40,338 nucleotides of DNA from Promethearchaeia archaeon (GCA_029856445.1 JAHQWY010000001.1:1-40338), one strand, 5' to 3'. Counted from the stretch's first letter, positions 1,423 through 27,375 are shown. Numbers and translations: made by a program. Notes: generated by a model not told the origin, from the sequence alone.

Positions 1423-3570
1423 ATGGCAACTATAATAGTAGCTGAAAAAAATAAAGCAGCAGAAGCCATTGCAAAAGCTTTAGGCTCAGTTAAAACAATA
1501 AAAAAATCAAAAATCCTAAATATATACATAATTCCATCAAAAGATATATATGTAATTCCATTACGCGGTCATCTACTCGAACATAAAAACACCGCGGCTT
1601 ATAAAAGTTGGACTAATACAAATTCTAGAGAGATTATCACCAATCCTAAAGCAATTAAAAAATTTCCGAAAAAAAATAGCAGTTCATATATTAAGGTTTT
1701 AAAAGAATATTCGAAGCTTTCAAATCATTGTATTATCGGAACTGATGCTGATATTGAGGGATGCAATATTGGACTTATTGATGCACTTCCCTTCATAAAG
1801 GAAGCAAACCCAAATATACGGATTTCACAATTATGGCTTAGTTCATTACAAAAAAATGAAATCATTAGTAAATTTAATAATCTCATTAGCCCAAAGTATA
1901 GTTGGGGTGAATCAGGAGAGGCAAGATCCCTTATTGATGCATTCATAGGTTTTTCTGCTACTAGAGAAGTTACTAATACGCTCCGTCCCTTATTAAATAA
2001 ATTTAGAGTTCCGTTTACTTCAATTGGAAGGGTCCAAACCAGTCTTCTTTATCTGATATATTTAAGAGATCAGGATATAACAAATTTTATACCAGAGCCT
2101 TATTTCTTAATTGATGCAGTATTATTTCATGGAGAAGGGACTTTTCAAGCCCATCATATATTAAATCCCTTTGAAAAAACTCAAGAAGTTAAAGCTCAAC
2201 AAATTTACCAAAAAATTAAGGGTGAAAAAGTTGCTAAAATAATCGATTGCCCTCAAAAATTAAAAGAGAGAGCACCCCCATCTCCACTAAACACTTCAAA
2301 AGCTTTAATCCTTTTAACTAGAAATCTACGAATTTCTGCTAGTGTAGCACTAAATACTATGAATGCCTTATATTTAAATAAATTAATCTCTTACCCAAGA
2401 ACAGATAGCGATATATATAAACCAGACTTTAACCATATTGATATTTTAAACCACTTCTCAACACATTCTCAATTAGGATCATACACTCTTAATCTACTAA
2501 AAGCAAATAGAATAATACCAACAAAAGGAAAAAAGGATGCAGGGGATCATCCTCCTATTACACCCCTCGAAAGCCTAGAAATAAACGATTCGAGATTAGA
2601 AAATGATTTACAGAAGAAAGTCTATAATATACTTGCGCGTTATTATCTCGCGTTGTTTGGAGAAAAAGCAGTAGAATCATTACAAACTTTAAATCTTTTG
2701 ATTAAAGATGAACAATTTAAAGCCCAACGCGTTTCATTAATTACTGAAGGATTTCTTGAGATTGTTCCTTTTCTTAAACCCAAATATGAAGAAGAAATCC
2801 AAATTTCTGGTAATGAGGTTCCTATAAAAGAAATTCTATTGAGAAAGAAAGAAACTAAACCACCTCCAAAGTATTCAGATGCATCCTTGCTCAAATTAAT
2901 GGAAAAGAATAATTTGGGCACAAAATCAACACGACCTATTATTATTAAAATTTTACAAACTCGTAAATTGATAGAAAGAACAAAACTACAATATTCAATA
3001 ACAGAATTGGGCAAATTCCTTATTGAAAATTTGATGAAAATATGGTTATCTTTTTTAGAACCAAATTTTACAAAAAAAGTTGAAAAAAAACTTGAAGAAA
3101 TTAAAGAAAGTAGAAGGAAAATGGATGATGTTGTAAACGAAGTAAGAGTAGAATTTTTAAAGCTATTTGATAAGTTTTTAGCTAATAAAAATGAATTAAT
3201 CTCTAAAGCTACTGGTTTTAAAATGAATTATACTATACCAATCACTTCCGCTAATTGTCCGTTCTGTAATAAAAGTCCCATGAAATTTATTAATCTCAAA
3301 AATAAAAAATTTTTAGTCTGCGCAGATGAAACTTGTAAGAGTTATTTGTCACTACCTAAGAATGGAAGGATAAAATTATTGGAATCAACTTGTTCCATTT
3401 GCAACTTCAATATTTTTAACATATCTCTTATAAAGAATAAAAAGTCATATAACTACTATATGTGTCCCAAATGCTGGAATGAAGGATTTAAGGAAAATCA
3501 AGGAAAAGGATTTTGTTCTAACTGCCAAGATTTCAAAATTGTTAGAGGGAAATGTGTAAAAAAAGAATAA
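1423..3570 (+). CDS. topA: DNA topoisomerase, type IA (archaeal Topo I/III-like) with C-terminal zinc ribbons
   Basis: 715 aa. N-terminal TOPRIM (IIVAEKNKAAEAIAKAL, acidic cluster GTDADIEGCNIG) and active-site Tyr motif LISYPRTDS. C-terminal Cys4-type ribbons: CPFC...CADETC, CSIC...CPKC, CSNC...C. Confidence 0.9.
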   Translation: MATIIVAEKNKAAEAIAKALGSVKTIKKSKILNIYIIPSKDIYVIPLRGHLLEHKNTAAYKSWTNTNSREIITNPKAIKKFPKKNSSSYIKVLKEYSKLSNHCIIGTDADIEGCNIGLIDALPFIKEANPNIRISQLWLSSLQKNEIISKFNNLISPKYSWGESGEARSLIDAFIGFSATREVTNTLRPLLNKFRVPFTSIGRVQTSLLYLIYLRDQDITNFIPEPYFLIDAVLFHGEGTFQAHHILNPFEKTQEVKAQQIYQKIKGEKVAKIIDCPQKLKERAPPSPLNTSKALILLTRNLRISASVALNTMNALYLNKLISYPRTDSDIYKPDFNHIDILNHFSTHSQLGSYTLNLLKANRIIPTKGKKDAGDHPPITPLESLEINDSRLENDLQKKVYNILARYYLALFGEKAVESLQTLNLLIKDEQFKAQRVSLITEGFLEIVPFLKPKYEEEIQISGNEVPIKEILLRKKETKPPPKYSDASLLKLMEKNNLGTKSTRPIIIKILQTRKLIERTKLQYSITELGKFLIENLMKIWLSFLEPNFTKKVEKKLEEIKESRRKMDDVVNEVRVEFLKLFDKFLANKNELISKATGFKMNYTIPITSANCPFCNKSPMKFINLKNKKFLVCADETCKSYLSLPKNGRIKLLESTCSICNFNIFNISLIKNKKSYNYYMCPKCWNEGFKENQGKGFCSNCQDFKIVRGKCVKKE

Positions 3571-3610: not shown

Positions 3611-3949
3611 TTAAAAGAATCTCTTTGCATCAAAACGATAAGCAGCTCTAGTTAAACCTACATAATTATCAGAAATTTTGTAGTAAAGCTTAGTATTTAC
3701 TACTTTCTTTTCTAAATAATTATTTTTAATCATATGATTCAATGAATTTATCATAGTCCCTAAAGTAACCGAACCAATATATCCATGCTGTTTCTTTGTA
3801 ATTCTTATTAATTCAAGTTCAGAATGCCAATGACCGTCTAATAAAGCCATAAGAATTTCATTTTTTATAGGGGTTTTAATATCCTTGATTTTATTAAACA
3901 AAACGGAATAACCAGGTTTGTAGAAATTGTCGTGTTTAAACTCTTCCAT
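3611..3949 (-). CDS. small winged-helix (wHTH) DNA-binding protein, putative transcription regulator
   Basis: 112 aa. Helix-turn-helix plus wing pattern: NEILMALLDGHWHSELELIRITK...GTMINSLNHMIKNNYLEKK...KLYYKISD. Lies 111 nt downstream of the actin gene on the same strand. Family not identified. Confidence 0.45.
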   Translation of the reverse strand: MEEFKHDNFYKPGYSVLFNKIKDIKTPIKNEILMALLDGHWHSELELIRITKKQHGYIGSVTLGTMINSLNHMIKNNYLEKKVVNTKLYYKISDNYVGLTRAAYRFDAKRFF

Positions 3950-4060: not shown

Positions 4061-5182
4061 TTACAACAAATTAGGGGGAATTCCTTCTTTAAAATATTTT
4101 GCTCTCGTTACCCAGTTATCTGAAAATTCTGGTATTAATGCGAGTATAGAACCCCCAACCCATACAGAAAAGGTTCTTTCTCTCGGTGCAATGATTCTTA
4201 CTACCTGATTTTTCTTTTTCCTTCTGGCTAATTCGAGTTCCAGCTCTTGGTACATTCGCGATTTCAAATTTGGGAACATCGAAGAACCTCCTGATAAAAA
4301 AATATTATTCAAGAGCTCTGGACGGATATCTAAATCACATTGTTCTATTACATCCATAACTGCTACTGGTAATGAATCTTCTTCTAATTCAGAGGAAGGA
4401 TTAAATAATAACTCAGGTACTAAAAATCTTTCATTTTGTAAAGAAATTGTAGAGCCGTCTGGCAAGGAATATTCTTTATTATATTGTTCACTTCTTTTTA
4501 AATCTTCTTTATAATCTAATGAAACAAAGCAAGCTTTTTCTTTTAATACTCTAACCAATTCTCTTCGAATTGAGGTATCAACAGACCAACCAATAGATTC
4601 TAATATTTGTTCCATATAATGAGTTAAGGTTCGACCTCCAATATCTAGGATTCTTACCGCATGTTCCAATTTATATCCTTCATAGATGGGAACAATTCTA
4701 GTATTACTGTCACCAATTTCGAGAATTAATCCTGTTTGAAATCCTCCTGAATATAAGGTTAGCATAGAATCCAATACAGGATAGAATGCCATGCATCGAT
4801 ATTTTTCTAAAAAGAGCTCAAAAATTTTTTCCAAATCTTTGTATGGAAACAGTGGATGAACTGCGAATAATACGTTAACTAGAGTAGGATCAACTCTTAA
4901 ATTGTAAAAGATATAATCTACGATGTTTTCAAAATGTTTCCAATCAGTAATAATCCCTTTTTCAATAGGGTAATAAATCTTATATAACCCTATTGACTGG
5001 ATCTCATCCCCTACATAAAGTTCATCTTCTCGCATATTTGGAGGAGCATAATCTATACTTACACTTTGATATTTTGGTTTCCCCACCATTGTTAAAAACA
5101 CTTGGTTTGGAGAATCCTCCCCAGCAAATCCTATTTTGGTTGAAAACTGACCTATATCCATTACGACAGTAAGATTTCCCAT
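4061..5182 (-). CDS. actin-family protein (eukaryote-like, Asgard-type divergent actin/ARP paralog)
   Basis: 373 aa, collinear with eukaryotic actin over its full length. Examples (this ORF vs actin): KIGFAGEDSPNQVF vs KAGFAGDDAPRAVF; YPIEKGIITDW vs YPIEHGIVTNW; IVPIYEGY identical; LSGGSSMFPN vs LSGGTTMYPG; FSVWVGGSILA vs YSVWIGGSILA. Confidence 0.9.
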   Translation of the reverse strand: MGNLTVVMDIGQFSTKIGFAGEDSPNQVFLTMVGKPKYQSVSIDYAPPNMREDELYVGDEIQSIGLYKIYYPIEKGIITDWKHFENIVDYIFYNLRVDPTLVNVLFAVHPLFPYKDLEKIFELFLEKYRCMAFYPVLDSMLTLYSGGFQTGLILEIGDSNTRIVPIYEGYKLEHAVRILDIGGRTLTHYMEQILESIGWSVDTSIRRELVRVLKEKACFVSLDYKEDLKRSEQYNKEYSLPDGSTISLQNERFLVPELLFNPSSELEEDSLPVAVMDVIEQCDLDIRPELLNNIFLSGGSSMFPNLKSRMYQELELELARRKKKNQVVRIIAPRERTFSVWVGGSILALIPEFSDNWVTRAKYFKEGIPPNLL

Positions 5183-5682
5183 TCTTCGTTATGCAAATAT
5201 CTTTTCTACTTTTTAATTTCTAATACTTACACAATAATATTATATTATAATTCTAAATATCTTAATTAATATTACACTAACATAACTTTCTATAATTAAA
5301 TAATTTTAAAAGATAATCTTAATCTCCTCAAAAAACTTAAACAACATATAAAAAATTAAAAAGACGAGTCTTAATCAATGAGTTATTATTTGTGAGATTC
5401 TTTTTCCATCTTCTTCTTATGGTGAATATTGTATATAGGAAACGTAGAATCTGCGATATTCATTGTGCCTAAAACCCGAAATTATGAAGATGAGTGAACC
5501 AAAAATGTCATTAGAAAAATAATACCGAATTTTTTAAGGTTTTTCAATTGATCACGCAATATTTTAATCTCAGGATTGTATTATTCCCATAAAATAATGT
5601 AGAAAAAGTACCTAATGAGTATTCTTTTTAATATATTTTTTTCTGCCAGCTTTATGAATTGGCTGCTCTCCACAGCCAAAAT

Positions 5683-6399
5683 TCACTCCCCTCGCATAAT
5701 CTTTTTCAACCTGTTTAACTCATCAAGCATCTCATCCCGAAGCGAACTCAAACCACCACCGGCTTGAGGTGCTGCCACTGGAGCTCCTGGTGGTTTAGGT
5801 GGTGCACCTCCAGATGGTGCTCCAGGTGTTGATGGTCTTTTTGCGAAGGCAGGAGCAGAAGGCGGTCCACTAGGAGCTTTTGGTGGTCCACCCCCACTAG
5901 GTGGAGCTGCAGGTGGCGTGCCTCCCGCAGGCGGTAATTTTGGTGCTGGTGGCAAATTAGGTCTTTTAGGCGGTCCACCTCCAGAAGCTGGTGCTTTAGG
6001 TGGCCCTGATGGGGGAGCACTAGGAGGTCCAGAAGGTGGTGCTTTTGGTGGTCCTCCACTAGGTGGCGCAGGTGGTGCAGGCGCCGCGGACATAGGTGGA
6101 GCTGCAGGAGTTGCTGCTGTGGGGGCTCCACCACCTCCACTCAATAAAGAGTATAAGGTACTGGCTGCTGCCGTTTTTGCTTCACCAGTTGATGTTTGTA
6201 TAATCTTTTTCGAGGAAGTACTTATTGTTTGAACTTCTTCAACAGAGACTTCTTTTAAATCCTTCTGAGCTTTAGCTAAAGATTTAATAAAATCATTAAT
6301 ACCTTTAACGGTCTCTTCGAGATCATCAGCTAAAGAAGTTAATCCTTTTTTCATAAAATTTATAACGCGTTCGATTTTTTTTTGCTCTTTTGAAACCAC
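5683..6399 (-). CDS. proline/glycine/alanine-rich protein with helical N-terminus and C-terminal amphipathic LKKI helix (function unknown)
   Basis: 238-aa ORF. Residues 1 to ~88 are charged and helical. Residues ~89-216 are low complexity with repeated GGPPKAP / PPSGPP units. The last 22 aa are LSSLRDEMLDELNRLKKIMRGE. The two other long ORFs over the same GC-rich DNA are frame shadows. Confidence 0.7.
   Translation of the reverse strand: MVSKEQKKIERVINFMKKGLTSLADDLEETVKGINDFIKSLAKAQKDLKEVSVEEVQTISTSSKKIIQTSTGEAKTAAASTLYSLLSGGGGAPTAATPAAPPMSAAPAPPAPPSGGPPKAPPSGPPSAPPSGPPKAPASGGGPPKRPNLPPAPKLPPAGGTPPAAPPSGGGPPKAPSGPPSAPAFAKRPSTPGAPSGGAPPKPPGAPVAAPQAGGGLSSLRDEMLDELNRLKKIMRGE
5752..6135 (-). repeat. 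GC-rich low-complexity coding repeat (imperfect GGTGGTCCACC / CCTCC-type units encoding PP/GGPPKAP)
   Basis: Hand count of 37/60 G+C at 5761-5820, against AT-rich flanks. Recurring ggtggtcc(a/t)cc and gg(t/a)gg(t/a)gc units. Open in three frames, as expected for a compositionally biased repeat. Confidence 0.7.
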
Positions 6400-14868: not shown

Positions 14869-15423
14869 ATGGAGACCCAAGATACAAAAGGCAAAATTGT
14901 TAAGGAAACCTTCCCATCAGAAACAATATCTATTATCGGAGATATCCTAGCCGGCATTATTCTTTCTCTTTTGATTCTGCCATTTGAAAGTTTTCTTGCT
15001 TTAATATTAATGATTCCTGCTCTCCTATCGTTAAGAGGGAACTTAAGTGGTCCTTTTATAGCAAGAACTTCTCGTGATTTAATTATTGGAAATTTTTCCA
15101 AAAGATCATGGATTGAAAATGTATTTGCAACATTTGTTTTAGCAATTATTACAGCAATCTTCATTGGTATATTTTCAATTATATTGAATTTATTAATATT
15201 TAATTTAGAAATCCTCCCTACTGTTCATTTTTTATCAATACCTACAATAACGATAATATTAACTCTTTCTATTTCAATTCCTTGTTCAACAGGATTGAAC
15301 TATATTGCCTTCAAAAGAGGACTCAACCCAAATAACGTTGTGAATCCTATTATGACTGCTGTTGATGATTTTTTCACAGTATTTTGTTTCTTTTTGACAT
15401 TAATAATGTTGGGGGTGCCATGA
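14869..15423 (+). CDS. MgtE/SLC41-type divalent-cation transporter membrane domain protein (half 1)
   Basis: 184 aa, with 4-5 TM segments. Has LRGNLSGPFIARTSRDL and the MgtE-type motif NPNNVVNPIMTAVDD (D/N-P-x-N-x3-P-x2-T-x2-D). Confidence 0.75.
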   Translation: METQDTKGKIVKETFPSETISIIGDILAGIILSLLILPFESFLALILMIPALLSLRGNLSGPFIARTSRDLIIGNFSKRSWIENVFATFVLAIITAIFIGIFSIILNLLIFNLEILPTVHFLSIPTITIILTLSISIPCSTGLNYIAFKRGLNPNNVVNPIMTAVDDFFTVFCFFLTLIMLGVP

Positions 15424-15974
15424 TGAAATATTTTATAAAGATTTTCAAAGAATCTATAATAGTTGTCATTTTGTCCTCAATATTTGGTTTAATCTCAGGT
15501 ACACTACTGTCATCAAACGAAAAGATACTCTATACAATTCCTATAATACTTTTAATCTTACCGGCGTTAAACTCTTTAATTGGGGATATTTCAACAGTGC
15601 TGGTATCAAGATTAACTACTCATCTTTATATTGGTACTATATTACCTAAAATCGAGAAATCTAAAAGAATGAAGGAAGATTTATATGGTCTGCTTATAAC
15701 TCTATTGTTAAGCTTATGTTTTCTATTTTTATTAGGATTTTCTATTGGAGTTATATCAAGAGTAAAAATAGTATATCCATTAATAATAATTTTGATTATA
15801 ACTGCCACAGTTTTAATCATATTTTTTATGATGTTTTTTATGCTATTTTTAGGTGCAATATTCTTATTTAAACGTGGTTTGGACCCAAATAATTTTCTTA
15901 TACCTTTTGTTACGTCGCTAGCAGATTTTCTAACTCCTTTATTCATTATTTTATTTATAATAATATTTATATAA
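15420..15974 (+). CDS. MgtE/SLC41-type divalent-cation transporter membrane domain protein (half 2)
   Basis: Motif DPNNFLIPFVTSLADF. I prefer the start at ATG 15420, which overlaps the upstream TGA stop as ATGA (15420-15423), suggesting translational coupling. The track ORF opens at 15384. Confidence 0.75.
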   Translation: MMKYFIKIFKESIIVVILSSIFGLISGTLLSSNEKILYTIPIILLILPALNSLIGDISTVLVSRLTTHLYIGTILPKIEKSKRMKEDLYGLLITLLLSLCFLFLLGFSIGVISRVKIVYPLIIILIITATVLIIFFMMFFMLFLGAIFLFKRGLDPNNFLIPFVTSLADFLTPLFIILFIIIFI

Positions 15975-16011
15975 AATCAAGTTTATATGAAAAATGAGTG
16001 AGTAAAACAAA

Positions 16012-17259
16012 ATGCCCAAAAGGAGTAAAAAGTTTAAATATAAGCCACTTTCTCTAAAAGATATAATTAGGGAAATGAAACAGAACATAGATTTAATGAT
16101 TGATTTGGCTTATAGTGCTATAAAATTTGGGAGTAAAGAATTAGCTGATGAAGCCTATAAAATGGAACAAAGAATTCACGAACTCACTTTTTTATTGAAT
16201 TTTCAAATAATTCAAGCACATCCAGGAGGCTTAAATGAAGCTAAAACATTAGAACCAATTGTAGTAATGGGTTATTCAATTGATAAAATCTCTGATGCAT
16301 TATGTGATATTGCTAGAACTGTGTATATCAATAGTGATATATCGTATTTCGTACAATTATTTAGTGATATTAGTTTTGTCCCTGAACCTATCGTAAAAAT
16401 TAGGGTAAATAAAGATTGTAGTTTTATAGGGCAAATAAGAAAGGAAGTACACTTCAGATCTAAATATGGTGTTGATTTAATCGCAATCCGGAGAAGAAAT
16501 AAATGGCTTTTCGAAAAAAATGAAAAATTGGCAAGAAATGACATATTACTTGTAAAAGGTGAAATTCAGCCAATTATTGATTTGAAAGCATTATGCAAAG
16601 ATCCTGAACCATTCTCATTTGATATTGGTTACAAGGATGATCAATTGTTAATTGATTTAGAAAATCCCGTTATTTGCGAAAAAATTGAGAAACTCCAAAG
16701 AAATTATGTTTTAATAACAGATGTTTCAGAAACTATGATTGAACTAGCTTTAGCAGCTTTATTTTTTAAGAATGAAGAACTAGCAGAAGATATTTTAGAA
16801 ATGGAAGAGCTAATGGATGGTTTAAATTTAGCTTTTGAAAAAGATCTTCTTGATCTAGCTCAATTGGTAGAAACACCAAGAGATCTAACAGGTATTATGC
16901 GAATTATTTTTTCTTGTGAGTTAATTGCTGATTCGGCAACACACATCGCAGAAAATATAATAAAAGGTTTTGAGCCACATAATATATTACAACAAGCTAT
17001 TCGTGAAACGTCTGAAATCGTTGTAAGAGAAACTCTCTCTGAAGACTCATATTTTAAAGAAAAAACGTATAATGAATTACAAGACAGACGTTATAAGCGT
17101 GGGTTCCATATTATAGCTTTAAAGAGAGAAGATAAATGGATTTATCGATTTAGACCTGATTTTATTTTCGAAGAGGGAGATTTAATTATTGGTTTAGGAC
17201 CTAAAGAAACAGTTATGGAATGGCGTACATGTGTTAATCCTGAAAAATATAAAGAATAA
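16012..17259 (+). CDS. regulatory protein with two PhoU-like and two TrkA-C (RCK_C) domains
   Basis: 415 aa with alternating PhoU-like helical segments (DLAYSAIKFGSKELADEAYKMEQRIHEL; ELALAALFFKNEELAEDILEMEELMD) and TrkA-C-like beta segments (VDLIAIRRRNKWLF...NDILLVKGE; FHIIALKREDKWIY...GDLIIGLGP). This type is commonly adjacent to archaeal MgtE-like permeases. Confidence 0.75.
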   Translation: MPKRSKKFKYKPLSLKDIIREMKQNIDLMIDLAYSAIKFGSKELADEAYKMEQRIHELTFLLNFQIIQAHPGGLNEAKTLEPIVVMGYSIDKISDALCDIARTVYINSDISYFVQLFSDISFVPEPIVKIRVNKDCSFIGQIRKEVHFRSKYGVDLIAIRRRNKWLFEKNEKLARNDILLVKGEIQPIIDLKALCKDPEPFSFDIGYKDDQLLIDLENPVICEKIEKLQRNYVLITDVSETMIELALAALFFKNEELAEDILEMEELMDGLNLAFEKDLLDLAQLVETPRDLTGIMRIIFSCELIADSATHIAENIIKGFEPHNILQQAIRETSEIVVRETLSEDSYFKEKTYNELQDRRYKRGFHIIALKREDKWIYRFRPDFIFEEGDLIIGLGPKETVMEWRTCVNPEKYKE

Positions 17260-17883: not shown

Positions 17884-18288
17884 GTGAAAGGAATGAATGA
17901 ATTTATCGAAGTAAAATTTATTTCTCCAAGAAAAGGTAAAGGTATTGTCGCCTTAAATGAAATTAAAAAGGGGACTATAATCGATGTTGCACATGTAATA
18001 CCGATACCAAATGACGATTATGAAAAAATCAGTAAAACGATTCTGTATAATTATTGTTATATTTGGGAAGATCCAAAACATAAACCAGAATACAAGAATG
18101 CTATATCCTTAAGCATTAGTCAATTTATAAATCATTCTTATACTCCAAATGTTAGATATATATATGATTACAATAATAATTGTATTGAGTTTAAAACTAT
18201 ACGTGATATTTCCAAAGGGGAAGAAATTACGGTAAATTACAATGGATTAGTTAATGATAAAAGCCCTGTCTGGTTTGATATAGAGTAA
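17884..18288 (+). CDS. minimal SET-domain protein (putative protein lysine methyltransferase), paralog 1
   Basis: SET motifs NHSYTPNV and GEEITVNYN, in ~131 aa. The track start is GTG 17884. ATG at 17893 (MNEFIEV) aligns with the paralog's start and is probably the real one. Confidence 0.8.
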   Translation: MKGMNEFIEVKFISPRKGKGIVALNEIKKGTIIDVAHVIPIPNDDYEKISKTILYNYCYIWEDPKHKPEYKNAISLSISQFINHSYTPNVRYIYDYNNNCIEFKTIRDISKGEEITVNYNGLVNDKSPVWFDIE

Positions 18289-18370: not shown

Positions 18371-18778
18371 GTGAATTCCATGAATAAACTATTAGAAATA
18401 AGATTTATCTCAAAACAAAAAGGAAAAGGAGTATTTGCTAAAGACAATATACCAAAAGGAGAAATTATTGATGTTGCTCACATAATCCTTATTTCTAATA
18501 ATGATTGGAATTTGATTGAAAATACAGTTTTATCTAATTACTCTTTTGAATGGGATGATCCAAAATGCATTGGAGAATTTGATTCAGCAATCTCTTTAAG
18601 CGTTAGCCAGTTTATAAATCATTCATATGAACCAAATGTCAAATATATCTATGATTATAAAAACAAATGCATTAAATACATCACTCTTCGAAATATATCA
18701 AGGGGAGAGGAAATTACTGTAAATTATAATGGAGAACCCCTTAATCAGGAACCTGTATGGTTTGAAGTAGAAAAGTAA
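18371..18778 (+). CDS. minimal SET-domain protein (putative protein lysine methyltransferase), paralog 2
   Basis: SET motifs NHSYEPNV and GEEITVNYN. The track start is GTG 18371, with a likely ATG at 18380 (MNKLLEI). A gapless hand alignment to paralog 1 gives 77 of 131 identical positions. Confidence 0.8.
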   Translation: MNSMNKLLEIRFISKQKGKGVFAKDNIPKGEIIDVAHIILISNNDWNLIENTVLSNYSFEWDDPKCIGEFDSAISLSVSQFINHSYEPNVKYIYDYKNKCIKYITLRNISRGEEITVNYNGEPLNQEPVWFEVEK

Positions 18779-21725: not shown

Positions 21726-22652
21726 ATGAATGAGCAATACCGTAATCGTTATATTAATGATAAGATTGATGAGAACATTTCACAACAATCTTATTGTTGC
21801 GATAATCCATTTGTGGAGTCAAGAGACGGTAATAAGGTGTGTTTAAATTGTGGATTAATTTTTGAAAGAACATTTGTAGGAAATGAGAGACGGGCATATA
21901 CAGTAGAAGAAATACAGAGCCGTCGCAGGACAGAACCGCGCTGGAGAGATTTCGGACCACGAACAATGTTGCCCAATACGAAGACAGATAGTAAAGGAAA
22001 GAGTATTGGTGCAAAAGAACAAGCTCTTTTTTCTCGTCTTTCAAAAATTCAAAATTCTTTAATTTCGAGTATTGAGAGGAACTTTTGGGAAGCTAAACCA
22101 AAACTTAAAATGCTTACATCTAAACTCAATATTCCCGAATATATTGCAGATACAGCTTGGAAAGTATATAGTATTGTCGCAAAGAAAAAATTAACTATGG
22201 GACGGTCGATTAATGGATTTATTTCAGGATCTTTATATGCTGCGATTCGTGTTCATGACTTTCCTCGCTTATTAGATGAAGTATGTGAAGCATCCTTAAC
22301 ACCAAGAAGAACAGTTCATAGGAGTCTTGCAATGATAATTAGAGAGGTTTTACCTGAATTAAATTTAAGATACCAGCCTATAACTGCTGAATCATTAGTA
22401 TTTCGTTTTGGAAATGAATTAGACCTACCAATTCAAATTCAAAAAAATGCAATTAATATGTTACGAGATGCTTCGAAGAATGGATTAAAAAGAACAGGAA
22501 AAGATCCAAAGGGTTTAGCTGCTGCATGTATCTATATTGCAGCAAAAAATGGGTCTATTAGAAAAACACAATCAAAAGTGGCGGATATAGCAAAAATTAC
22601 GGAAGTAACGCTGCGAAGTCGTGCTAAACAGATAAAAAGTAAGCTTACATAA
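21726..22652 (+). CDS. tfb: transcription initiation factor TFB (TFIIB homolog)
   Basis: 308 aa. N-terminal ribbon CC-x13-CLNCGLIFE, B-reader/linker (ERRAYTVEEIQSRRRTEP), two cyclin-fold repeats (GRSINGFISGSLYAAIRVHDFPRLLDEV; GKDPKGLAAACIYIAAKNGSIRKTQSKVADIAKITEVTLRSR). Confidence 0.9.
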   Translation: MNEQYRNRYINDKIDENISQQSYCCDNPFVESRDGNKVCLNCGLIFERTFVGNERRAYTVEEIQSRRRTEPRWRDFGPRTMLPNTKTDSKGKSIGAKEQALFSRLSKIQNSLISSIERNFWEAKPKLKMLTSKLNIPEYIADTAWKVYSIVAKKKLTMGRSINGFISGSLYAAIRVHDFPRLLDEVCEASLTPRRTVHRSLAMIIREVLPELNLRYQPITAESLVFRFGNELDLPIQIQKNAINMLRDASKNGLKRTGKDPKGLAAACIYIAAKNGSIRKTQSKVADIAKITEVTLRSRAKQIKSKLT

Positions 22653-23456: not shown

Positions 23457-24398
23457 ATGGATACCTTAGAGTGTCAGCATAAAAATGTGAAACGAGAGGG
23501 GGGAGAATTAATATGCCAAGATTGTGGTCTAATCTTAGAAGAAAAATTAGCTTCTGAAGATATTCAAACCTACGGGGAATTTTATTCAGATTCTCAAAGA
23601 GATTATGAAAGGCGTATCCGTCTCAGCGACTCAAAAGCTTTGCAAGATCCAGTAATTCGTGAAAAGTATGAACGAATTAAAACACTTGAAAAGTGGTTTC
23701 GCGACTATGAATCTGATTTTACCGAACAAAAGAAAACCATTGAATTAATAAAAAGCCATGGTATCGGGCTAAATATCGATAATGTAAAATACCGAGAGAT
23801 TAAAGAACGGTATCTACGTTATAATAAATATCATAGACATAATTACCAAAATATGGTTATAATATTTCTGGCTATTATTTGGTTGGAAATAAAGGATACC
23901 ACTAATATACGTATTGAAGAATTTATTAGAGTTTCCAAGGAGTTAGGCCATAAGATAAATAAAAAGATGTTAGCGAATGCAATGTTAAAAGTAAAAAGAA
24001 CTGAGAAAATGTTAAAAGATAAGAAAGATGCCTCTTCATTGGAAAAAGAGATTAAAAACAAGATAAAAATTGTATTTCAAAAAGATTTGAATAGCATTTC
24101 ATATAAAGAAGTACAAGATTTTTTTTCAAATAAATCTCAATTTGAGAAGACTAAAATTAATATGCAGTTGCTAGTAGATAAGATCCTCAACATAATCCCC
24201 TATGAACAAATCCAAAACCTAAATTATAAAGCTTTTACAGCGGGTTTAATTTATTATATAGGACAAACCTTGACTAATAGGAAGATTTTTACACAGAGTA
24301 TAATTGAAAAACATAGTAAATTCTCAAGTACTACTATTAGAAAGAGATATCACCTGCTAAAAGAAATCTTAGGAGCACCTCAAGAGTTAGAGCTCTAA
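23457..24398 (+). CDS. highly divergent TFIIB/TFB-like protein
   Basis: N-terminal ribbon C6-x-H8-x11-C20-x2-C23 (ECQHKNVKREGGELICQDCGLILEE). Two degenerate cyclin-like repeats: NMVIIFLAIIWLEIKDTTNIRIEEFIRVSKELGHKINKKML and YKAFTAGLIYYIGQTLTNRKIFTQSIIEKHSKFSSTTIRKRYHLLKEIL. Confidence 0.55.
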   Translation: MDTLECQHKNVKREGGELICQDCGLILEEKLASEDIQTYGEFYSDSQRDYERRIRLSDSKALQDPVIREKYERIKTLEKWFRDYESDFTEQKKTIELIKSHGIGLNIDNVKYREIKERYLRYNKYHRHNYQNMVIIFLAIIWLEIKDTTNIRIEEFIRVSKELGHKINKKMLANAMLKVKRTEKMLKDKKDASSLEKEIKNKIKIVFQKDLNSISYKEVQDFFSNKSQFEKTKINMQLLVDKILNIIPYEQIQNLNYKAFTAGLIYYIGQTLTNRKIFTQSIIEKHSKFSSTTIRKRYHLLKEILGAPQELEL

Positions 24399-24507: not shown

Positions 24508-27375
24508 ATGTCAATAGCAAAAAAATCTAACGAACCTTATTACTCTCAATCGCTTGATGAGTTACTAGAACTTTTCCAAACAGATCCTGATAATGGTATA
24601 AGTTCCTCGGATTTAGAGCGCAGATATATAAATTCAGGATATAATGAATTACCAAAAATTAAAAAATCGATTTGGAAAATATACTTTGCACCAATATTTA
24701 ATTTTCTAATAATTATTCTTCTTATTACTGGGATATCCGTTGCTATTCTGGGTTCTCCTGGTGAAACAGTCATTACTTTCACAGTTGTGGTGATAAATTC
24801 TGCTACTGTCATTATTCAGCAATACAGAGCCCAAAAAGCACTGGAATCTCTAAAACAAATATCTGCTTTGAAAGCTACGGTTCTGAGAGATAAAGAACAA
24901 TTTGAGATACCCAATAGAGAATTAGTACCTGGAGACATTATATTACTAGAACAAGGAGATAAAATCCCTGCAGATGGGAGAATTATAAATCAAATTAATT
25001 TAAGGGTAGATGAAGCACCACTCACTGGTGAAAGTGAACCTGCAGAAAAAAACAACAAAATTATAGAAAAAAATGATGTACCCATTCAAAAACAGTCCAA
25101 TATGATATTTATGGGAACTTATATATATACAGGCAGAGCAAAAGCATTAATAACCGATACTGGTGTGAACACAGAGATAGGTAAAATATCTACAACTCTA
25201 AATGAAATGGGGAGTATTGAAGATATCCCCTTGACAGGTAAATTGAATAGATTAGGTTATATTTTAGGAATAATAGTAATCATCAATCTATACATACTAA
25301 TCTTCTATAAATTAGTAGTTTTAGCGTACGAAGAGAATTTAATTAGATCTGAAATAAGTAGTGCTCTAGTAAGTTCCATTTTACGAGCCACAAATGTACT
25401 TCCAATAAATTTACCACTCCTAACAACTTTAGTTTTAATCACTGGAGTATTAAATATGGCTCAAAGTGGAGTAATAATTAAAAACTTATCTGCAATTGAA
25501 TCTCTTGGTCGAGTATCTGTAATTTGTTCAGATAAAACCGGAACAATAACTAGAAATGAAATGGCAGTAGAAAGATTCTGGATTAATGAAAAAGAATATG
25601 AGGTCACTGGTTCTGGTTATGACGCTGAAGGAGAAATATTATTAAATGGCACATCCTCTAATTTAAAAGACAATTTAACATTTCAAAAGTTCATAAACTC
25701 AATGGTCTTAAATAATAATGCTCAATTGATTTTTGAAGATGTCAAAGTGAGAGTAGGTGGTAAAAAAGAGATGGCAGTAAGACGGGAATTAGGTTCACCT
25801 ACTGAAGCTGCATTATTAGTATTATCTGAAAAAGCAGGCTATATCCCATATGATGTACGAAGACTATATACATTAGTGAGTGAATTTTCCTTTAGTTCGG
25901 AACTAAAACTGATGAGTTCAATCTATTTATTAAACGGTGATAAGAAACAATTCTTAATATTTTCTAAGGGAGCTCCTGAGAAGATTATTAATATATCTTC
26001 TCAAATAGAAATAGATGGAATTAATAAAGAATTGACTGATGATATTAAGCAAAACATATTAGAAAAAGTAGAACATCAAGCAAGAGAAGGATATAGAGTT
26101 TTAGCAATCGCAAATAAAGCAATAGCTAACGCTGATAATTCCAAAAGGGAAGAAATCGAATATAATTTAACCTTTTTAGGATTTGTTTCAATTATGGATC
26201 CTCCTCGCATTGGTGTTAAAAAATCAATAGAGGAATGTCAATCAGGTAATATTAAAGTCATTATGATAACTGGTGATCATCCTGCCACTGCAAAAACTAT
26301 TGCAACTCAAATGCAAATTTATAAGGAAGGAGATATTTTAGCAGAGGGGAAACAAATAAAAGATCTTAGTGAAGATGATTTTGAAAAGGTATCTGTGTTT
26401 GCCAGAGTAGAGCCTTCTGATAAGGAAATTATTGTAAAAAATTACCAAAAAAAGAATCATGTTGTTGCTATGACCGGAGATGGAATAAATGATTCTCTTG
26501 CCTTGAAATTAGCAAATGCAGGTATTGCTATGGGAATAACTGGAACAGATGTAGCTAAGGAAACTGCGGATATGGTTATCTCAGATGATAATTTTTCTTC
26601 AATTGAAAAAGGAGTTCGAATAGGGCGTGGTCTATTTTCGAAGATAAGAACTATAATCTACTTTTTTATTTGTTTGAACATAATGGAAGCAATTATCTTT
26701 TTTACCTATGAATTTATACCTACATTTGATCTTTTCAGTTCAGAATGGCAACATATATATATTTTTGGTATTGTGCACTCATTTCCTTCCTTAGCGCTGG
26801 TTATTGATACGCATCCTAAGGATATTATGCAAGAATCACCTAGAGATGAAGAGCAAATATTAAATAAAAATATGTGGATAATGTTATTAATTCAAGTTTT
26901 TCTTATGGGTATAGGGTTAGTTTTAGCTTTGCAATTCACATTATGGGAGATAATCCCTCTGAATGAATGGAATCTGAACCCACAAATAAGTTATGTTGAT
27001 CCTCTTGCATCTCAATCCGAATTAGTAGCTCAGAAGGCAAGAACAATGTTCATTACAACAATATATATTGTTGAAACTAATTTTATATGGACTTTTAGAA
27101 GACCAAATAAATCGCTTTATAGAAGTATAAAAGAAGAATTATCAGTTTCTTTATTGGTTATTTGCCTATTTACATTAACATTACATTTGCTCTTTATTTG
27201 CTTTTCATATTCAGTTAATTATTACATAAATGATGTTTCTGGGTTTAACTTTCAATTAAATTTTATGTTTCTTAGTGGAACAGATTGGTTGATTTGTATA
27301 TTACTGGCATTACCTGGTATCTTTGGAATTGAAATTTATAAAAATATAGCAAGGAAAAAGAAAGTGTTTTTTTAG
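24508..27375 (+). CDS. P-type cation-transporting ATPase (P2/P3-like architecture, atypical ion site), paralog A
   Basis: 955 aa. Cation_ATPase_N-like start, TGES (LTGESEP), phosphorylation site CSDKTGTIT (DKTGT at 25531-25545), MITGDHPATA, MTGDGINDSLALK. M4 motif is PINLP (25402-25416) instead of PEGLP. Confidence 0.9.
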   Translation: MSIAKKSNEPYYSQSLDELLELFQTDPDNGISSSDLERRYINSGYNELPKIKKSIWKIYFAPIFNFLIIILLITGISVAILGSPGETVITFTVVVINSATVIIQQYRAQKALESLKQISALKATVLRDKEQFEIPNRELVPGDIILLEQGDKIPADGRIINQINLRVDEAPLTGESEPAEKNNKIIEKNDVPIQKQSNMIFMGTYIYTGRAKALITDTGVNTEIGKISTTLNEMGSIEDIPLTGKLNRLGYILGIIVIINLYILIFYKLVVLAYEENLIRSEISSALVSSILRATNVLPINLPLLTTLVLITGVLNMAQSGVIIKNLSAIESLGRVSVICSDKTGTITRNEMAVERFWINEKEYEVTGSGYDAEGEILLNGTSSNLKDNLTFQKFINSMVLNNNAQLIFEDVKVRVGGKKEMAVRRELGSPTEAALLVLSEKAGYIPYDVRRLYTLVSEFSFSSELKLMSSIYLLNGDKKQFLIFSKGAPEKIINISSQIEIDGINKELTDDIKQNILEKVEHQAREGYRVLAIANKAIANADNSKREEIEYNLTFLGFVSIMDPPRIGVKKSIEECQSGNIKVIMITGDHPATAKTIATQMQIYKEGDILAEGKQIKDLSEDDFEKVSVFARVEPSDKEIIVKNYQKKNHVVAMTGDGINDSLALKLANAGIAMGITGTDVAKETADMVISDDNFSSIEKGVRIGRGLFSKIRTIIYFFICLNIMEAIIFFTYEFIPTFDLFSSEWQHIYIFGIVHSFPSLALVIDTHPKDIMQESPRDEEQILNKNMWIMLLIQVFLMGIGLVLALQFTLWEIIPLNEWNLNPQISYVDPLASQSELVAQKARTMFITTIYIVETNFIWTFRRPNKSLYRSIKEELSVSLLVICLFTLTLHLLFICFSYSVNYYINDVSGFNFQLNFMFLSGTDWLICILLALPGIFGIEIYKNIARKKKVFF

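What the first reader, a model, noticed from the sequence alone, without database searches (positions are those of the whole stretch)
4061..6399. Poly-proline protein with a WH2-like C-terminal LKKI helix encoded just upstream of an actin-family gene
Seen in sequence: the 238-aa product of 5683-6399 (minus strand) has three parts. The first is a charged helical N-terminus of ~88 aa. The second is a ~130-aa tract dominated by PP-containing units (GGPPKAPPSGPPSAPPSGPPKAPASGGGPPKRPNLPPAPKLPPAGGTPPAAPPSGGGPPKAPSGPPSAP...). The third is a terminal 22 aa, LSSLRDEMLDELNRLKKIMRGE (5686-5751), an amphipathic helix with L/M/L/L spacing followed by LKKI. The gene is co-directional with, and 500 nt upstream of, the actin-family gene at 4061-5182.

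Established knowledge: in eukaryotes a poly-Pro tract (profilin/EVH1/SH3 docking) combined with a WH2 motif (short amphipathic helix followed by LKKV/T, binding the actin barbed-end cleft) is the core of WASP/WAVE, WIP/verprolin and Ena/VASP-type actin assembly factors. Asgard archaea are known to encode actins, profilins and gelsolin-like regulators.

Inference: this may be an archaeal poly-Pro + WH2-like actin-binding or assembly factor genetically linked to its actin.

Caveats: the helix-to-LKK spacing is about 3 residues shorter than in canonical WH2. Low-complexity proteins arise easily. Adjacency may be coincidental.
Basis: partly seen in the sequence, partly recalled or inferred. Interest (0 to 1): 0.8.

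Follow-up and report, generated by a model that had tools for sequence, protein, structure and literature searches.

The report
Conserved Asgard proline-rich protein, portable helix
This gene encodes a real, strongly conserved but undescribed Asgard-archaeal scaffold protein whose invariant end helix is reused in other proteins and often lies beside a divergent actin gene. That makes it a candidate new actin regulator, but it is not a recognisable WH2 domain and actin binding is unproven.

Summary
Window 5683-6399 (-) encodes a 238-aa protein with an N-terminal helix, a PP-rich disordered tract and a C-terminal helix ending in LKKI. It lies 500 nt upstream of an actin-family gene.

It is not a chance low-complexity ORF:
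- More than 230 homologue clusters exist, and 113 GTDB species genomes carry the family.
- In 73 distinct gene sequences, 21 of 24 residues scored across the C-terminal motif are invariant while synonymous codons are scrambled.
- An internal PPAPKLPP motif is equally fixed.

The helix is a portable module. It also occurs in tandem on Zn-ribbon plus longin-fold proteins, after a Ras-like domain, and on membrane-anchored Thorarchaeota proteins.

The gene order poly-Pro, (PIG-L), actin paralogue holds in 77 of 80 GTDB loci and in a more distant subfamily. It is absent in three other subfamilies.

WH2 membership is not supported. Pfam, PDB-profile and home-made WH2 profiles all fail. Proline runs are only two residues long, too short for classical profilin ligands. 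The neighbouring actin is ARP-like, with changed catalytic residues.

My best reading (about 0.35) is a disordered adaptor whose helix docks on an actin-family protein in the manner of arcadin-2 or WH2. A non-actin partner is about equally likely.

The parts
5683..6399 (-). Gene for the 238-aa proline-rich protein (GTG start, TGA stop at 5683-5685)
   Evidence: More than 233 homologue clusters of 210-247 aa. The N-terminus MVSKEQKK is conserved.
6247..6390 (-). Residues 4-51: long amphipathic N-terminal helix with a 3-4 hydrophobic spacing and an invariant KKGL (residues 17-20)
   Evidence: AlphaFold2 pLDDT 84-95 by 10-residue block. 86% mean pairwise identity over the first 50 aa in 73 sequences. 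Invariant columns.
6142..6183 (-). Residues 73-86: short hydrophobic helix AKTAAASTL(F/Y)SLLSG (motif AAxxLxxLLxG)
   Evidence: Conserved in the core family and in distant subfamilies. Weak helix in the model, pLDDT about 55.
5752..6135 (-). Residues 89-216: disordered PP-dipeptide-rich spacer (37% Pro; GPPKAP/GPPSAP units), variable in length and sequence
   Evidence: Linker length is 108-140 aa across the family. The longest Pro run is 2.
5929..5958 (-). Residues 148-157: invariant linear motif NLPPAPKLPP
   Evidence: PPAPKLPP is identical in 70 of 73 sequences, with 4-5 codons per Pro/Ala/Leu site and 2 at Lys. It is LPPPPKLPP in distant subfamilies.
5833..5847 (-). Residues 185-189: conserved linear motif FAKRP
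   Evidence: K187 and R188 are invariant; F185 and A186 are at least 90% conserved. The equivalent in distant subfamilies is SF(A/V/M)K(R/G).
5686..5760 (-). Residues 214-238: invariant C-terminal module GGGLSSLRDEMLDELNRLKKIMRGE (helix 217-235, contains LKKI)
   Evidence: Across residues 214-237, 21 of 24 positions are invariant in 73 distinct DNA versions with scrambled synonymous codons. pLDDT about 92. The same motif occurs in other architectures.
5655..5685 (-). Hairpin overlapping the stop codon (-13.5 kcal/mol), followed by T-rich sequence; a possible transcript end
   Evidence: The function is inferred, not shown.
5183..5682 (-). 500-nt AT-rich spacer between the two genes. No PIG-L remnant; room for a separate promoter for the actin gene.
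   Evidence: In other genomes this gap ranges from 123 to 4933 nt and usually holds a PIG-L gene.
4061..5182 (-). ARP-like actin paralogue (373 aa), the conserved downstream neighbour
   Evidence: Pfam Actin 306 bits. About 41% identity to rabbit actin. Q137D, H161R and D154E are invariant in 56 orthologues. The D-loop is 5 aa longer. The barbed-end cleft and acidic patch are largely kept.
3611..3949 (-). Conserved 112-aa neighbour downstream of the actin gene. No family match; winged-helix-like by eye only.
   Evidence: Present after the actin gene in almost all core-clade loci. No Pfam hit even at E<=10. Absent from the distant syntenic subfamily.
1423..3570 (+). Type IA topoisomerase on the opposite strand. 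It marks the collinear block of the core clade.
   Evidence: It is not conserved next to the cluster in the distant subfamily.

Best explanation
SHOWN. The gene encodes a member of a large, undescribed Asgard (Loki-, Hel- and Thor-type) family of mostly disordered adaptor proteins. Each member has the following parts:
- a long amphipathic N-terminal helix;
- a short hydrophobic helix (AAxxLxxLLxG);
- a PP-rich flexible spacer of about 110-140 residues that carries two fixed linear motifs, LPP(A/P)PKLPP and FAKRP;
- a terminal 20-25-residue helix (LRDEMLxELxRLKxIMRG) that is under extreme protein-level constraint.
This terminal helix is a portable module. The same peptide is found in tandem on Zn-ribbon plus longin-fold proteins, after a Ras-like domain, and on membrane-anchored proteins.

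INFERRED. The helix is a docking peptide for a very conserved external partner. The most likely partner is an actin-family protein, either Lokiactin or the neighbouring ARP-like paralogue. The helix would be gripped in the groove between subdomains 1 and 3, as with arcadin-2 on crenactin and WH2 on actin. The spacer and its Pro motifs would tether that actin to whatever the N-terminal helices bind (self, membrane or another protein). This would give a sequestering or delivery factor.

It works like a WH2 or arcadin-2 peptide, but it is not a detectable member of the WH2 family.
For: - Family size and conservation.
- Codon-level purifying selection on the helix and on PPAPKLPP.
- Portability. 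The motif occurs three times on Zn-ribbon plus longin-fold proteins. It follows a Ras-like domain in P0153. It sits on membrane-anchored Thorarchaeota proteins and on further architectures in metagenomes.
- The N-terminal parts diverge strongly or are replaced while the helix stays the same, so the partner is external.
- In the tandem protein the motif helices are low-confidence (pLDDT 53-61), giving no sign that they pack onto their own domain.
- Gene-order link to an actin paralogue: 77 of 80 GTDB loci and 39 of 42 core metagenome loci. All 4 loci of a subfamily at only about 45% (poly-Pro) and 62% (actin) identity keep it too, although the p112 and topoisomerase neighbours are not kept there.
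- The paralogue keeps cleft residues Y143, G146, G168, Y169, I345 and L346. It also keeps the acidic patch D24(E), D25, E167 and E334.
- Precedent: the arcadin-2 C-terminal helix binds the crenactin groove and is encoded beside crenactin (PMC5173319).
- L-K-K-I is invariant by direct reading.
- Only profilins and gelsolins are known Asgard actin regulators, so there is room for more (10.1101/2025.11.30.690169; PMC12050087).
Against: - No direct evidence of actin binding. Complex prediction was not possible.
- No WH2 signal: Pfam, PDB profile search, home-made WH2 HMM at 1.0 bit with 255 of 2000 shuffles scoring as high.
- LKKI is modelled inside a continuous helix rather than as an extended segment.
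- All faces of the helix are invariant, which is atypical for WH2 domains. This rests on my own knowledge of WH2 variability.
- A PIG-L gene separates the two genes in 49 of 77 loci.
- Subfamilies b, c and e, the relatives P0129, P0135 and P0172, and the Thorarchaeota family have no actin gene nearby.
- The motif's other hosts are longin and GTPase-type proteins, which point equally to trafficking machinery.
- Loki profilins reportedly do not bind poly-Pro (PMC8410842).
Confidence: 0.35

Rival explanations
1. The terminal helix is a docking peptide for a conserved non-actin hub. One candidate is the MIT domain of Vps4, with the helix acting as a MIM1-like leucine helix. Another is a component of the Asgard small-GTPase, longin or coat machinery. 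On this view the actin neighbourhood is historical rather than functional.
For: - The hydrophobic spacing M-x3-L-x2-L-K matches the MIM1 pattern L-x3-L-x2-L-(K/R) by direct reading.
- A home-made MIM1 HMM scores slightly better than the WH2 HMM: 4.0 bits, with 83 of 2000 shuffles as high.
- The motif sits on longin-fold and Ras-like proteins.
- Arf/Ras-like genes lie next to family members in L003, L004 and L092.
- Several subfamilies have no actin linkage.
Against: - The MIM1 score is not significant, and the Arg at consensus position 7 is Glu here (direct reading).
- No MIM1 peptide chain was found by the motif profile in PDB.
- No ESCRT or MIT gene appears in any inspected neighbourhood.
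- The only recurrent functional neighbour in two separate clades is the actin paralogue, together with PIG-L.
Confidence: 0.33
2. The helix is a self-association element. It would form a short coiled coil or bundle with the N-terminal helix of the same or another chain, or with other copies of itself. That would make the protein an oligomeric or auto-inhibited scaffold, and there would be no separate partner for the helix.
For: - Both the N-terminal helix and the C-terminal helix have heptad-like hydrophobic seams (direct reading).
- Both receive unusually high pLDDT (84-95 by block and about 92) in the monomer model.
- Three copies per chain in the tandem proteins could form a three-helix bundle.
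Against: - The helix is retained almost unchanged when the N-terminal part diverges to 31% mean identity or is replaced by unrelated domains.
- In the tandem protein the three motif helices are low-confidence (pLDDT 53-61) with overall pTM 0.37, so no bundle is indicated.
- Invariance of the polar positions is unusual for a simple coiled coil. This is an inference.
Confidence: 0.12
3. The protein is a true homologue or equivalent of WASP, WIP or VASP-type factors. It would have a canonical WH2 domain that binds G-actin and a poly-proline tract that recruits profilin-actin.
For: - Invariant LKKI preceded by an amphipathic helix.
- A Pro-rich tract lies next to it.
- The fixed LPPAPKLPP resembles the VASP peptide PPPAPPLP used in profilin assays (PMC8410842).
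- Tandem copies with Pro-rich linkers recall Spire and Cobl. This comparison rests on my own knowledge.
Against: - All WH2 profile tests fail.
- The Pro runs are only 2 residues long.
- There is no EVH1, WH1 or CA region, and no tryptophan.
- LKKI is predicted to be helical.
Confidence: 0.06
4. The ORF is a chance product of low-complexity GC-rich sequence and has no specific function.
For: - The tract is compositionally extreme.
- It spawns spurious overlapping ORFs.
- It contains a weak 24-nt repeat.
Against: - Hundreds of full-length homologues have conserved ends and internal motifs.
- Synonymous-site turnover occurs with invariant amino acids.
Confidence: 0.01

Closest known systems
Arcadin-2 of Pyrobaculum (crenactin regulator; PDB 5LY3; PMC5173319)
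   Same: Archaeal protein encoded beside an actin homologue. Its short C-terminal helix is the functional element and binds the hydrophobic groove of the actin. Like arcadin-2, it has no detectable sequence similarity to eukaryotic actin binders.
   Different: No sequence relationship was tested or is known. Arcadin-2 binding relies on a tryptophan, and this protein has none. Arcadin-2 has no PP-rich spacer and is not known as a portable or tandem motif. Actin binding is unproven here.
WH2 domain (Pfam PF02205; WASP, WIP, thymosin-beta4, Spire, Cobl)
   Same: Short amphipathic helix plus an L-K-K-(I/V/T) tetrad. It is placed next to Pro-rich sequence. It occurs singly at a C-terminus or in tandem arrays with short linkers.
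   Different: Not recognised by any WH2 profile. The helix-to-LKK spacing is off by 1-3 residues, depending on register. There is no conserved Gly in the linker. LKKI is predicted to be helical. The motif is invariant on all faces, whereas WH2 domains are loosely conserved.
WH2-like LKKT-type motifs in Asgard gelsolin linkers (LVDV, LKDV, LRRV, LKHV; PMC9433394; 10.1101/2025.11.30.690169)
   Same: These are the only actin-contacting LKKT-like elements so far described in Asgard archaea. They show that such contacts predate eukaryotes.
   Different: They are four-residue elements inside gelsolin-domain proteins. This protein has no gelsolin domain, and its motif is a 20-25-residue helix.
MIM1 (MIT-interacting motif 1) of ESCRT-III Vps2/24/46-class subunits
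   Same: C-terminal leucine-spaced helix ending in a basic residue, often preceded by a flexible or Pro-rich linker. The hydrophobic spacing matches.
   Different: There is no ESCRT-III core. The consensus Arg is Glu here. The profile score is not significant. No ESCRT genes are nearby.
Ena/VASP, WASP and WIP-type actin assembly factors
   Same: Overall logic: an oligomerising or targeting end, a Pro-rich flexible region and a short actin-monomer-binding peptide.
   Different: No EVH1 or WH1 domain, no CA region, no runs of 5 or more prolines and no detectable homology. Loki profilins are reported not to bind poly-Pro.

Membership tests
WH2 domain (PF02205) | Recognised by the family profile | tested here: not met
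   Pfam scan of the whole protein gave nothing at E<=0.01, and scans of the 39-aa and 25-aa C-terminal peptides gave nothing at E<=10. The motif profile A3 against all PDB chains at E<=10 gave no WH2 chain.
WH2 domain (PF02205) | L-(K/R)-(K/R)-(V/T/I) tetrad after an amphipathic helix | tested here: met
   L231-K-K-I234 is invariant in 73 sequences, preceded by L217, L220, M224, L225 and L228.
WH2 domain (PF02205) | Canonical spacing (LLxxIxxGxxLKKV) with a non-helical linker and an extended LKKT segment | tested here: not met
   The spacing differs by 1-3 residues depending on register, and there is no linker Gly (direct reading). AlphaFold2 models one continuous helix from 217 to 235 through LKKI. 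The free-state prediction is only indicative.
WH2 domain (PF02205) | [quoted passage not shown] | not testable with these tools
No multimer prediction was available.
WASP/WIP/VASP-type assembly factor | Profilin-binding poly-proline runs (5 or more consecutive Pro) | tested here: not met
   The longest Pro run is 2 in the window protein and in 64 of 73 family members, with a maximum of 5 in one. Loki profilins are reported not to bind VASP poly-Pro (PMC8410842).
WASP/WIP/VASP-type assembly factor | Accessory domains (EVH1/WH1, GBD, central and acidic region with Trp, tetramerisation coiled coil) | tested here: not met
   No Pfam family was found for the protein. There is no Trp in the sequence. 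Foldseek against PDB gave 0 hits.
MIM1 (ESCRT-III C-terminal MIT-interacting motif) | Consensus (D/E)xxLxxRLxxL(K/R) at the end of an ESCRT-III subunit | tested here: inconclusive
   The hydrophobic spacing and final Lys fit, but Arg7 is Glu and position 1 is Arg (direct reading). A memory-typed MIM1 HMM scored 4.0 bits, with 83 of 2000 shuffles as high. No MIM1 chain was hit in PDB. There is no Snf7 core.
Arcadin-2-like actin regulator | Encoded in a conserved cluster with an archaeal actin gene | tested here: met
   77 of 80 GTDB loci, 39 of 42 core metagenome loci and 4 of 4 loci of a distant subfamily meet this, usually with PIG-L in between. It is not met in subfamilies b, c and e or in the Thorarchaeota family.
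Arcadin-2-like actin regulator | C-terminal helix alone binds the actin hydrophobic groove and depolymerises or sequesters | not testable with these tools
   This needs complex prediction or biochemistry. The precedent is described in PMC5173319.
Actin family (for the neighbour 4061-5182) | Actin fold profile and nucleotide-binding residues | tested here: met
   Pfam Actin scored 306 bits over residues 5-367. D11, K18, G156, D157, G301 and G302 are kept, while Q137D, H161R and D154E are fixed changes. This is ARP-like rather than Lokiactin.

The most novel reading that the evidence does not exclude
The LRDEMLxELxRLKxIMRG helix is an archaeal, WH2-analogous actin-monomer-binding module that evolved before eukaryotes. 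It would be used singly on membrane-proximal PP-rich scaffolds (this family and the membrane-anchored Thorarchaeota family). It would be used in tandem on longin and Ras-like GTPase proteins. That would give Asgard archaea a GTPase-coupled actin nucleation, delivery or sequestration system beyond profilin and gelsolin.
Probability: 0.2. Interest if true: 0.92.

Novelty: new variant of a known kind. Interest (0 to 1): 0.66.

Why it matters
Profilins and gelsolins are the only experimentally supported actin regulators in Asgard archaea. How Lokiactin assembly is started, localised or coupled to membranes and GTPases is an open question for the origin of the eukaryotic cytoskeleton.

This family gives a concrete, cheap test object. 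It offers a 25-residue invariant peptide, plus a fixed LPPAPKLPP motif, that can be synthesised and tested against Lokiactin, the ARP-like paralogue, profilin, Vps4-MIT and small GTPases.

Even if actin is not the partner, the work defines a new portable interaction motif. It is shared by disordered scaffolds, longin-fold proteins and a Ras-like protein in Loki-, Hel- and Thor-type archaea. Linear-motif wiring of this kind is usually regarded as a eukaryotic hallmark.

Tried and rejected
Groove docking is therefore untested.
- Pfam on the whole protein and on N- and C-terminal pieces up to E=10: only sub-threshold coiled-coil-type noise for the N-terminus and nothing for the C-terminus.
- PDB sequence searches with the peptide and with a 24-instance motif profile: only chance ELxRLK matches, for example to C-type lectin necks and M proteins.
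- Foldseek of the full-length model against PDB: 0 hits.
The doubled-motif profile returned only mis-called fragments of the same family, plus Helarchaeota members.
- Lokiactin co-IP table of L. ossiferum: it uses private locus tags that I could not map to this family.
- Viral contig scan for the motif: 0 hits.
- Rfam scan of the window: 0 hits.
- Neighbourhoods of the tandem-motif proteins and of subfamilies b and c: no cytoskeletal or ESCRT genes.
- Intramolecular docking of the motif on the longin domain of P0162: not indicated.
- I rejected the idea that the synteny is only genome collinearity. The distant subfamily d keeps poly-Pro, PIG-L and actin but not the p112 and topoisomerase neighbours.
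Full report
**Observation**

The co-directional ORF 4061-5182 (-) is an actin-family protein: Pfam Actin scores 306 bits over residues 5-367, and eukaryotic actins in PDB score about 300 bits. The gap between the two genes is exactly 500 nt.

The Pro-rich part forms a 54-61% GC island in DNA of about 28% GC. That island explains two spurious overlapping ORFs. It contains only a weak 24-nt repeat.

A hairpin overlaps the stop codon, and the spacer is AT-rich. In this genome the two genes therefore probably have separate transcripts. This is an inference.

**A real, large family**

A protein search returned 233 or more clusters of 210-247 aa. All are annotated as hypothetical, none has a Pfam domain, and they come from Promethearchaeota and Lokiarchaeota MAGs. 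A scan of GTDB species genomes found 113 with a relative.

An alignment of 32 members (A1) shows:
- a highly conserved first 88 residues;
- a variable PP-rich middle;
- an invariant NLPPAPKLPP;
- a conserved FAKRP;
- an invariant GGGLSSLRDEMLDELNRLKKIMRGE.

In 73 distinct gene sequences, 21 of 24 motif positions never change. At the same time the Leu and Arg positions use 4-6 different codons, and PPAPKLPP behaves the same way. This is strong purifying selection on the protein. It is not recent common descent or a DNA-level signal.

**Anatomy**

AlphaFold2 run with A1 gives the following picture:
- a helix at 4-51 (pLDDT 84-95 by 10-residue block);
- a weak helix at 73-86;
- disorder from 87 to 216;
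- a helix at 217-235 (pLDDT about 92).

Foldseek of this model against PDB finds nothing. The tract is 37% Pro, but the longest Pro run is 2 in this protein and in 64 of 73 members. The spacer length varies from 108 to 140 residues. It is therefore a PP-dipeptide spacer carrying fixed linear motifs, not classical poly-proline.

**The terminal helix is a portable module**

An exhaustive HMMER search with A1 found distant full-length relatives with the same plan: N-helix, AAxxLxxLLxG, PP-rich spacer with LPPPPKLPP, and LR(D/N)EMLxELxRLKxIM.

It also found unrelated architectures that carry the same helix:
- P0158, P0162 and P0164 have three copies, followed by a CPxCG...CCxC Zn-ribbon and a C-terminal domain.
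- P0153 has a Ras-like domain followed by two copies.
- P0159 has three copies and nothing else.
- P0123 is a fusion of a transmembrane segment, the family protein and a TIR domain.

A second profile search found a family of roughly 300-330 aa, one member of which is annotated Thorarchaeota. Its members have a transmembrane segment, a helical region and GGPPS repeats, and end in the same helix.

AlphaFold2 of P0162 followed by Foldseek shows that its C-terminal domain has a longin/roadblock fold. The hits include zeta-COP, AP sigma subunits, the VAMP7 longin domain, MglB and Roadblock. The three motif helices are low-confidence (pLDDT 53-61), giving no sign that they pack onto that domain.

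A degenerate DNA scan of metagenomes returned 120 loci before reaching its limit. About 85 were core family. The rest were at least six further subfamilies plus Zn-ribbon-only and membrane-anchored hosts.

A loose regex for the motif matched only once per locus across all loci held at that point, so the pattern is specific.

The helix stays the same while the N-terminal part diverges to 31% mean identity or is swapped for something else. Its partner is therefore most likely an external and very conserved protein. This is an inference.

**Synteny**

In six individually inspected contigs the order is poly-Pro gene, sometimes PIG-L, actin paralogue, a protein of 112-122 aa, then a topoisomerase on the other strand.

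- Of 80 GTDB species loci, 77 have the actin paralogue downstream on the same strand at 71-94% identity. Two of the exceptions end within about 450 nt of the gene.
- The gap is 123-4933 nt with a median of 922 nt. In 49 of 77 loci a PIG-L deacetylase gene lies in between, so direct adjacency as in this window is the minority state.
- In the independent metagenome sample, 39 of 42 core loci with at least 2.5 kb of downstream sequence have the paralogue.
- A distant subfamily (d) has poly-Pro identity of 43-46% and actin identity of 59-62%. It keeps the order poly-Pro, PIG-L, actin in all four loci, with short gaps of about 175 nt and about 66 nt. It lacks the 112-aa and topoisomerase neighbours. 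The trio is therefore a conserved cluster and not merely collinearity.

Against this:
- Subfamilies b, c and e show no actin paralogue downstream (0 of 9 loci with enough sequence).
- The relatives P0129, P0135 and P0172, and the Thorarchaeota protein, have no actin gene within 2-10 kb.
- Their neighbours are transporters, Moa genes and PhoU-like genes.

**The neighbouring actin**

Across 56 orthologues:
- Nucleotide-binding residues are kept.
- Q137 is Asp, H161 is Arg and D154 is Glu in every sequence.
- The D-loop is five residues longer.
- The hydrophobic plug is not kept.
- The barbed-end cleft is largely retained: Y143, G146, G168, Y169, I345 and L346.
- The acidic patch is largely retained: D24(E), D25, E167 and E334.

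This matches the 'ARP-like' homologues that accompany Lokiactin in Lokiarchaeum ossiferum, which are expressed at a lower level than Lokiactin (PMC9834061).

**Is it a WH2 domain?**

By direct reading there is an amphipathic helix and an invariant LKKI. One register aligns SLRDEMLDELNRLKKI with ALLDQIREGAQLKKV using a single one-residue indel.

Every profile test fails, however:
- Pfam finds no WH2 match even at E<=10 on the isolated peptide.
- A 24-instance motif profile against all PDB chains finds only chance ELxRLK matches. To my knowledge PDB holds many WH2-actin and MIT-MIM1 complexes.
A MIM1 HMM gives 4.0 bits, with 83 of 2000 shuffles as good.

LKKI is also modelled as helical. I therefore do not file it as a WH2 domain. 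The claim that it may work like one is lowered but not removed.

**Poly-Pro and profilin**

The tract lacks long Pro runs. [quoted passage not shown] The single fixed LPP(A/P)PKLPP resembles the VASP PPPAPPLP peptide and class II PxxPxK ligands. It is the better candidate for a proline-recognition partner. This is an inference.

**What is known**

- WH2-like LKKT elements in Asgard archaea have been described only inside gelsolin linkers (PMC9433394; 10.1101/2025.11.30.690169).
- Reviews and recent work list profilins and gelsolins as the Asgard actin regulators (PMC12050087; 10.1101/2025.11.30.690169).
- I found no paper in the held library that describes this family.
- The closest mechanistic precedent in archaea is arcadin-2. 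Its C-terminal helix binds the crenactin groove, and its gene lies beside crenactin (PMC5173319).
- An Arf GTPase co-purifies with Lokiactin in L. ossiferum. That is compatible with a link between GTPases and actin, but it proves nothing here.

**Verdict**

The gene encodes a member of a new, strongly constrained family of Asgard adaptor proteins with a portable terminal helix and a conserved, though not universal, gene-cluster link to an ARP-like actin.

Binding to an actin-family groove is the single most likely mechanism (about 0.35). A non-actin hub is nearly as likely (about 0.33), self-association is possible (about 0.12), and the literal WH2-plus-profilin reading is unlikely (about 0.06).

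Noticed in passing
window 4061-5182 (-): In the actin paralogue the catalytic residues Q137, H161 and D154 are replaced by D, R and E in all 56 orthologues. Its D-loop is 5 residues longer and it has no canonical hydrophobic plug. This suggests an ARP-like protein with altered ATP hydrolysis or polymerisation.
   Followed up: partly
L002 8834-9580; 49 of 77 GTDB loci; L103, L132, L161, L194: A PIG-L family deacetylase gene usually sits between the poly-Pro gene and the actin paralogue, only about 37-67 nt upstream of the actin gene. The ancestral cluster appears to be poly-Pro, PIG-L, ARP. The window has lost PIG-L.
   Followed up: partly
P0158, P0162, P0164 (L087 554-1654; L094 10001-11092; L112, L137, L162): These proteins carry three copies of the same helix motif, then a CPxCG...CCxC Zn-ribbon and a longin/roadblock-fold domain. 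P0153 carries two copies after a Ras-like domain. L148 holds a short version with one copy plus the Zn-ribbon.
   Followed up: partly
P0192-P0205 (L093 10001-10954); L160 4325-5083: Membrane-anchored proteins (one annotated Thorarchaeota) consist of a transmembrane segment, a helical region, GGPPS repeats or a short Pro-rich stretch, and the same terminal helix. No actin gene lies within 10 kb.
   Followed up: partly
window 3611-3949 (-): A conserved 112-aa protein lies directly downstream of the actin paralogue in almost all core-clade genomes. It has no family match. The sequence looks like a winged helix by eye.
   Followed up: no
L003 5381-5908; L004 1-516; L092 9243-9782: Arf/Ras/Roc-type small GTPase genes lie just upstream of some family members. 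An Arf GTPase is reported to co-immunoprecipitate with Lokiactin (10.1101/2025.11.30.690169).
   Followed up: no
window 17884-18288 and 18371-18778 (+): Two tandem SET-domain (lysine methyltransferase-like) genes of about 135 aa each.
   Followed up: no
window 24508-27375 and 27599-30481 (+): Two tandem P-type cation-transport ATPase genes of 955 and 960 aa.
   Followed up: no
window 14869-17259 (+): A pair of split MgtE-domain genes is followed by a PhoU/TrkA-C protein. The same trio lies near the family gene in L001.
   Followed up: no
window 21726-22652 and 23457-24398 (+): A TFIIB gene, plus a second protein that matches only the TFIIB zinc ribbon, below the Pfam cut-off.
   Followed up: no
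window 5748-6140 (-) and 5918-6232 (+): Spurious ORFs of 130 and 104 aa are created by the GC-rich Pro/Gly/Ala-coding island. Public gene calls also contain many short fragments of this family (P0206-P0223).
   Followed up: yes
P0123 (549 aa): A fusion of an N-terminal transmembrane segment, a full family member and a C-terminal TIR domain. Here the helix motif is internal, so it does not need a free C-terminus.
   Followed up: no
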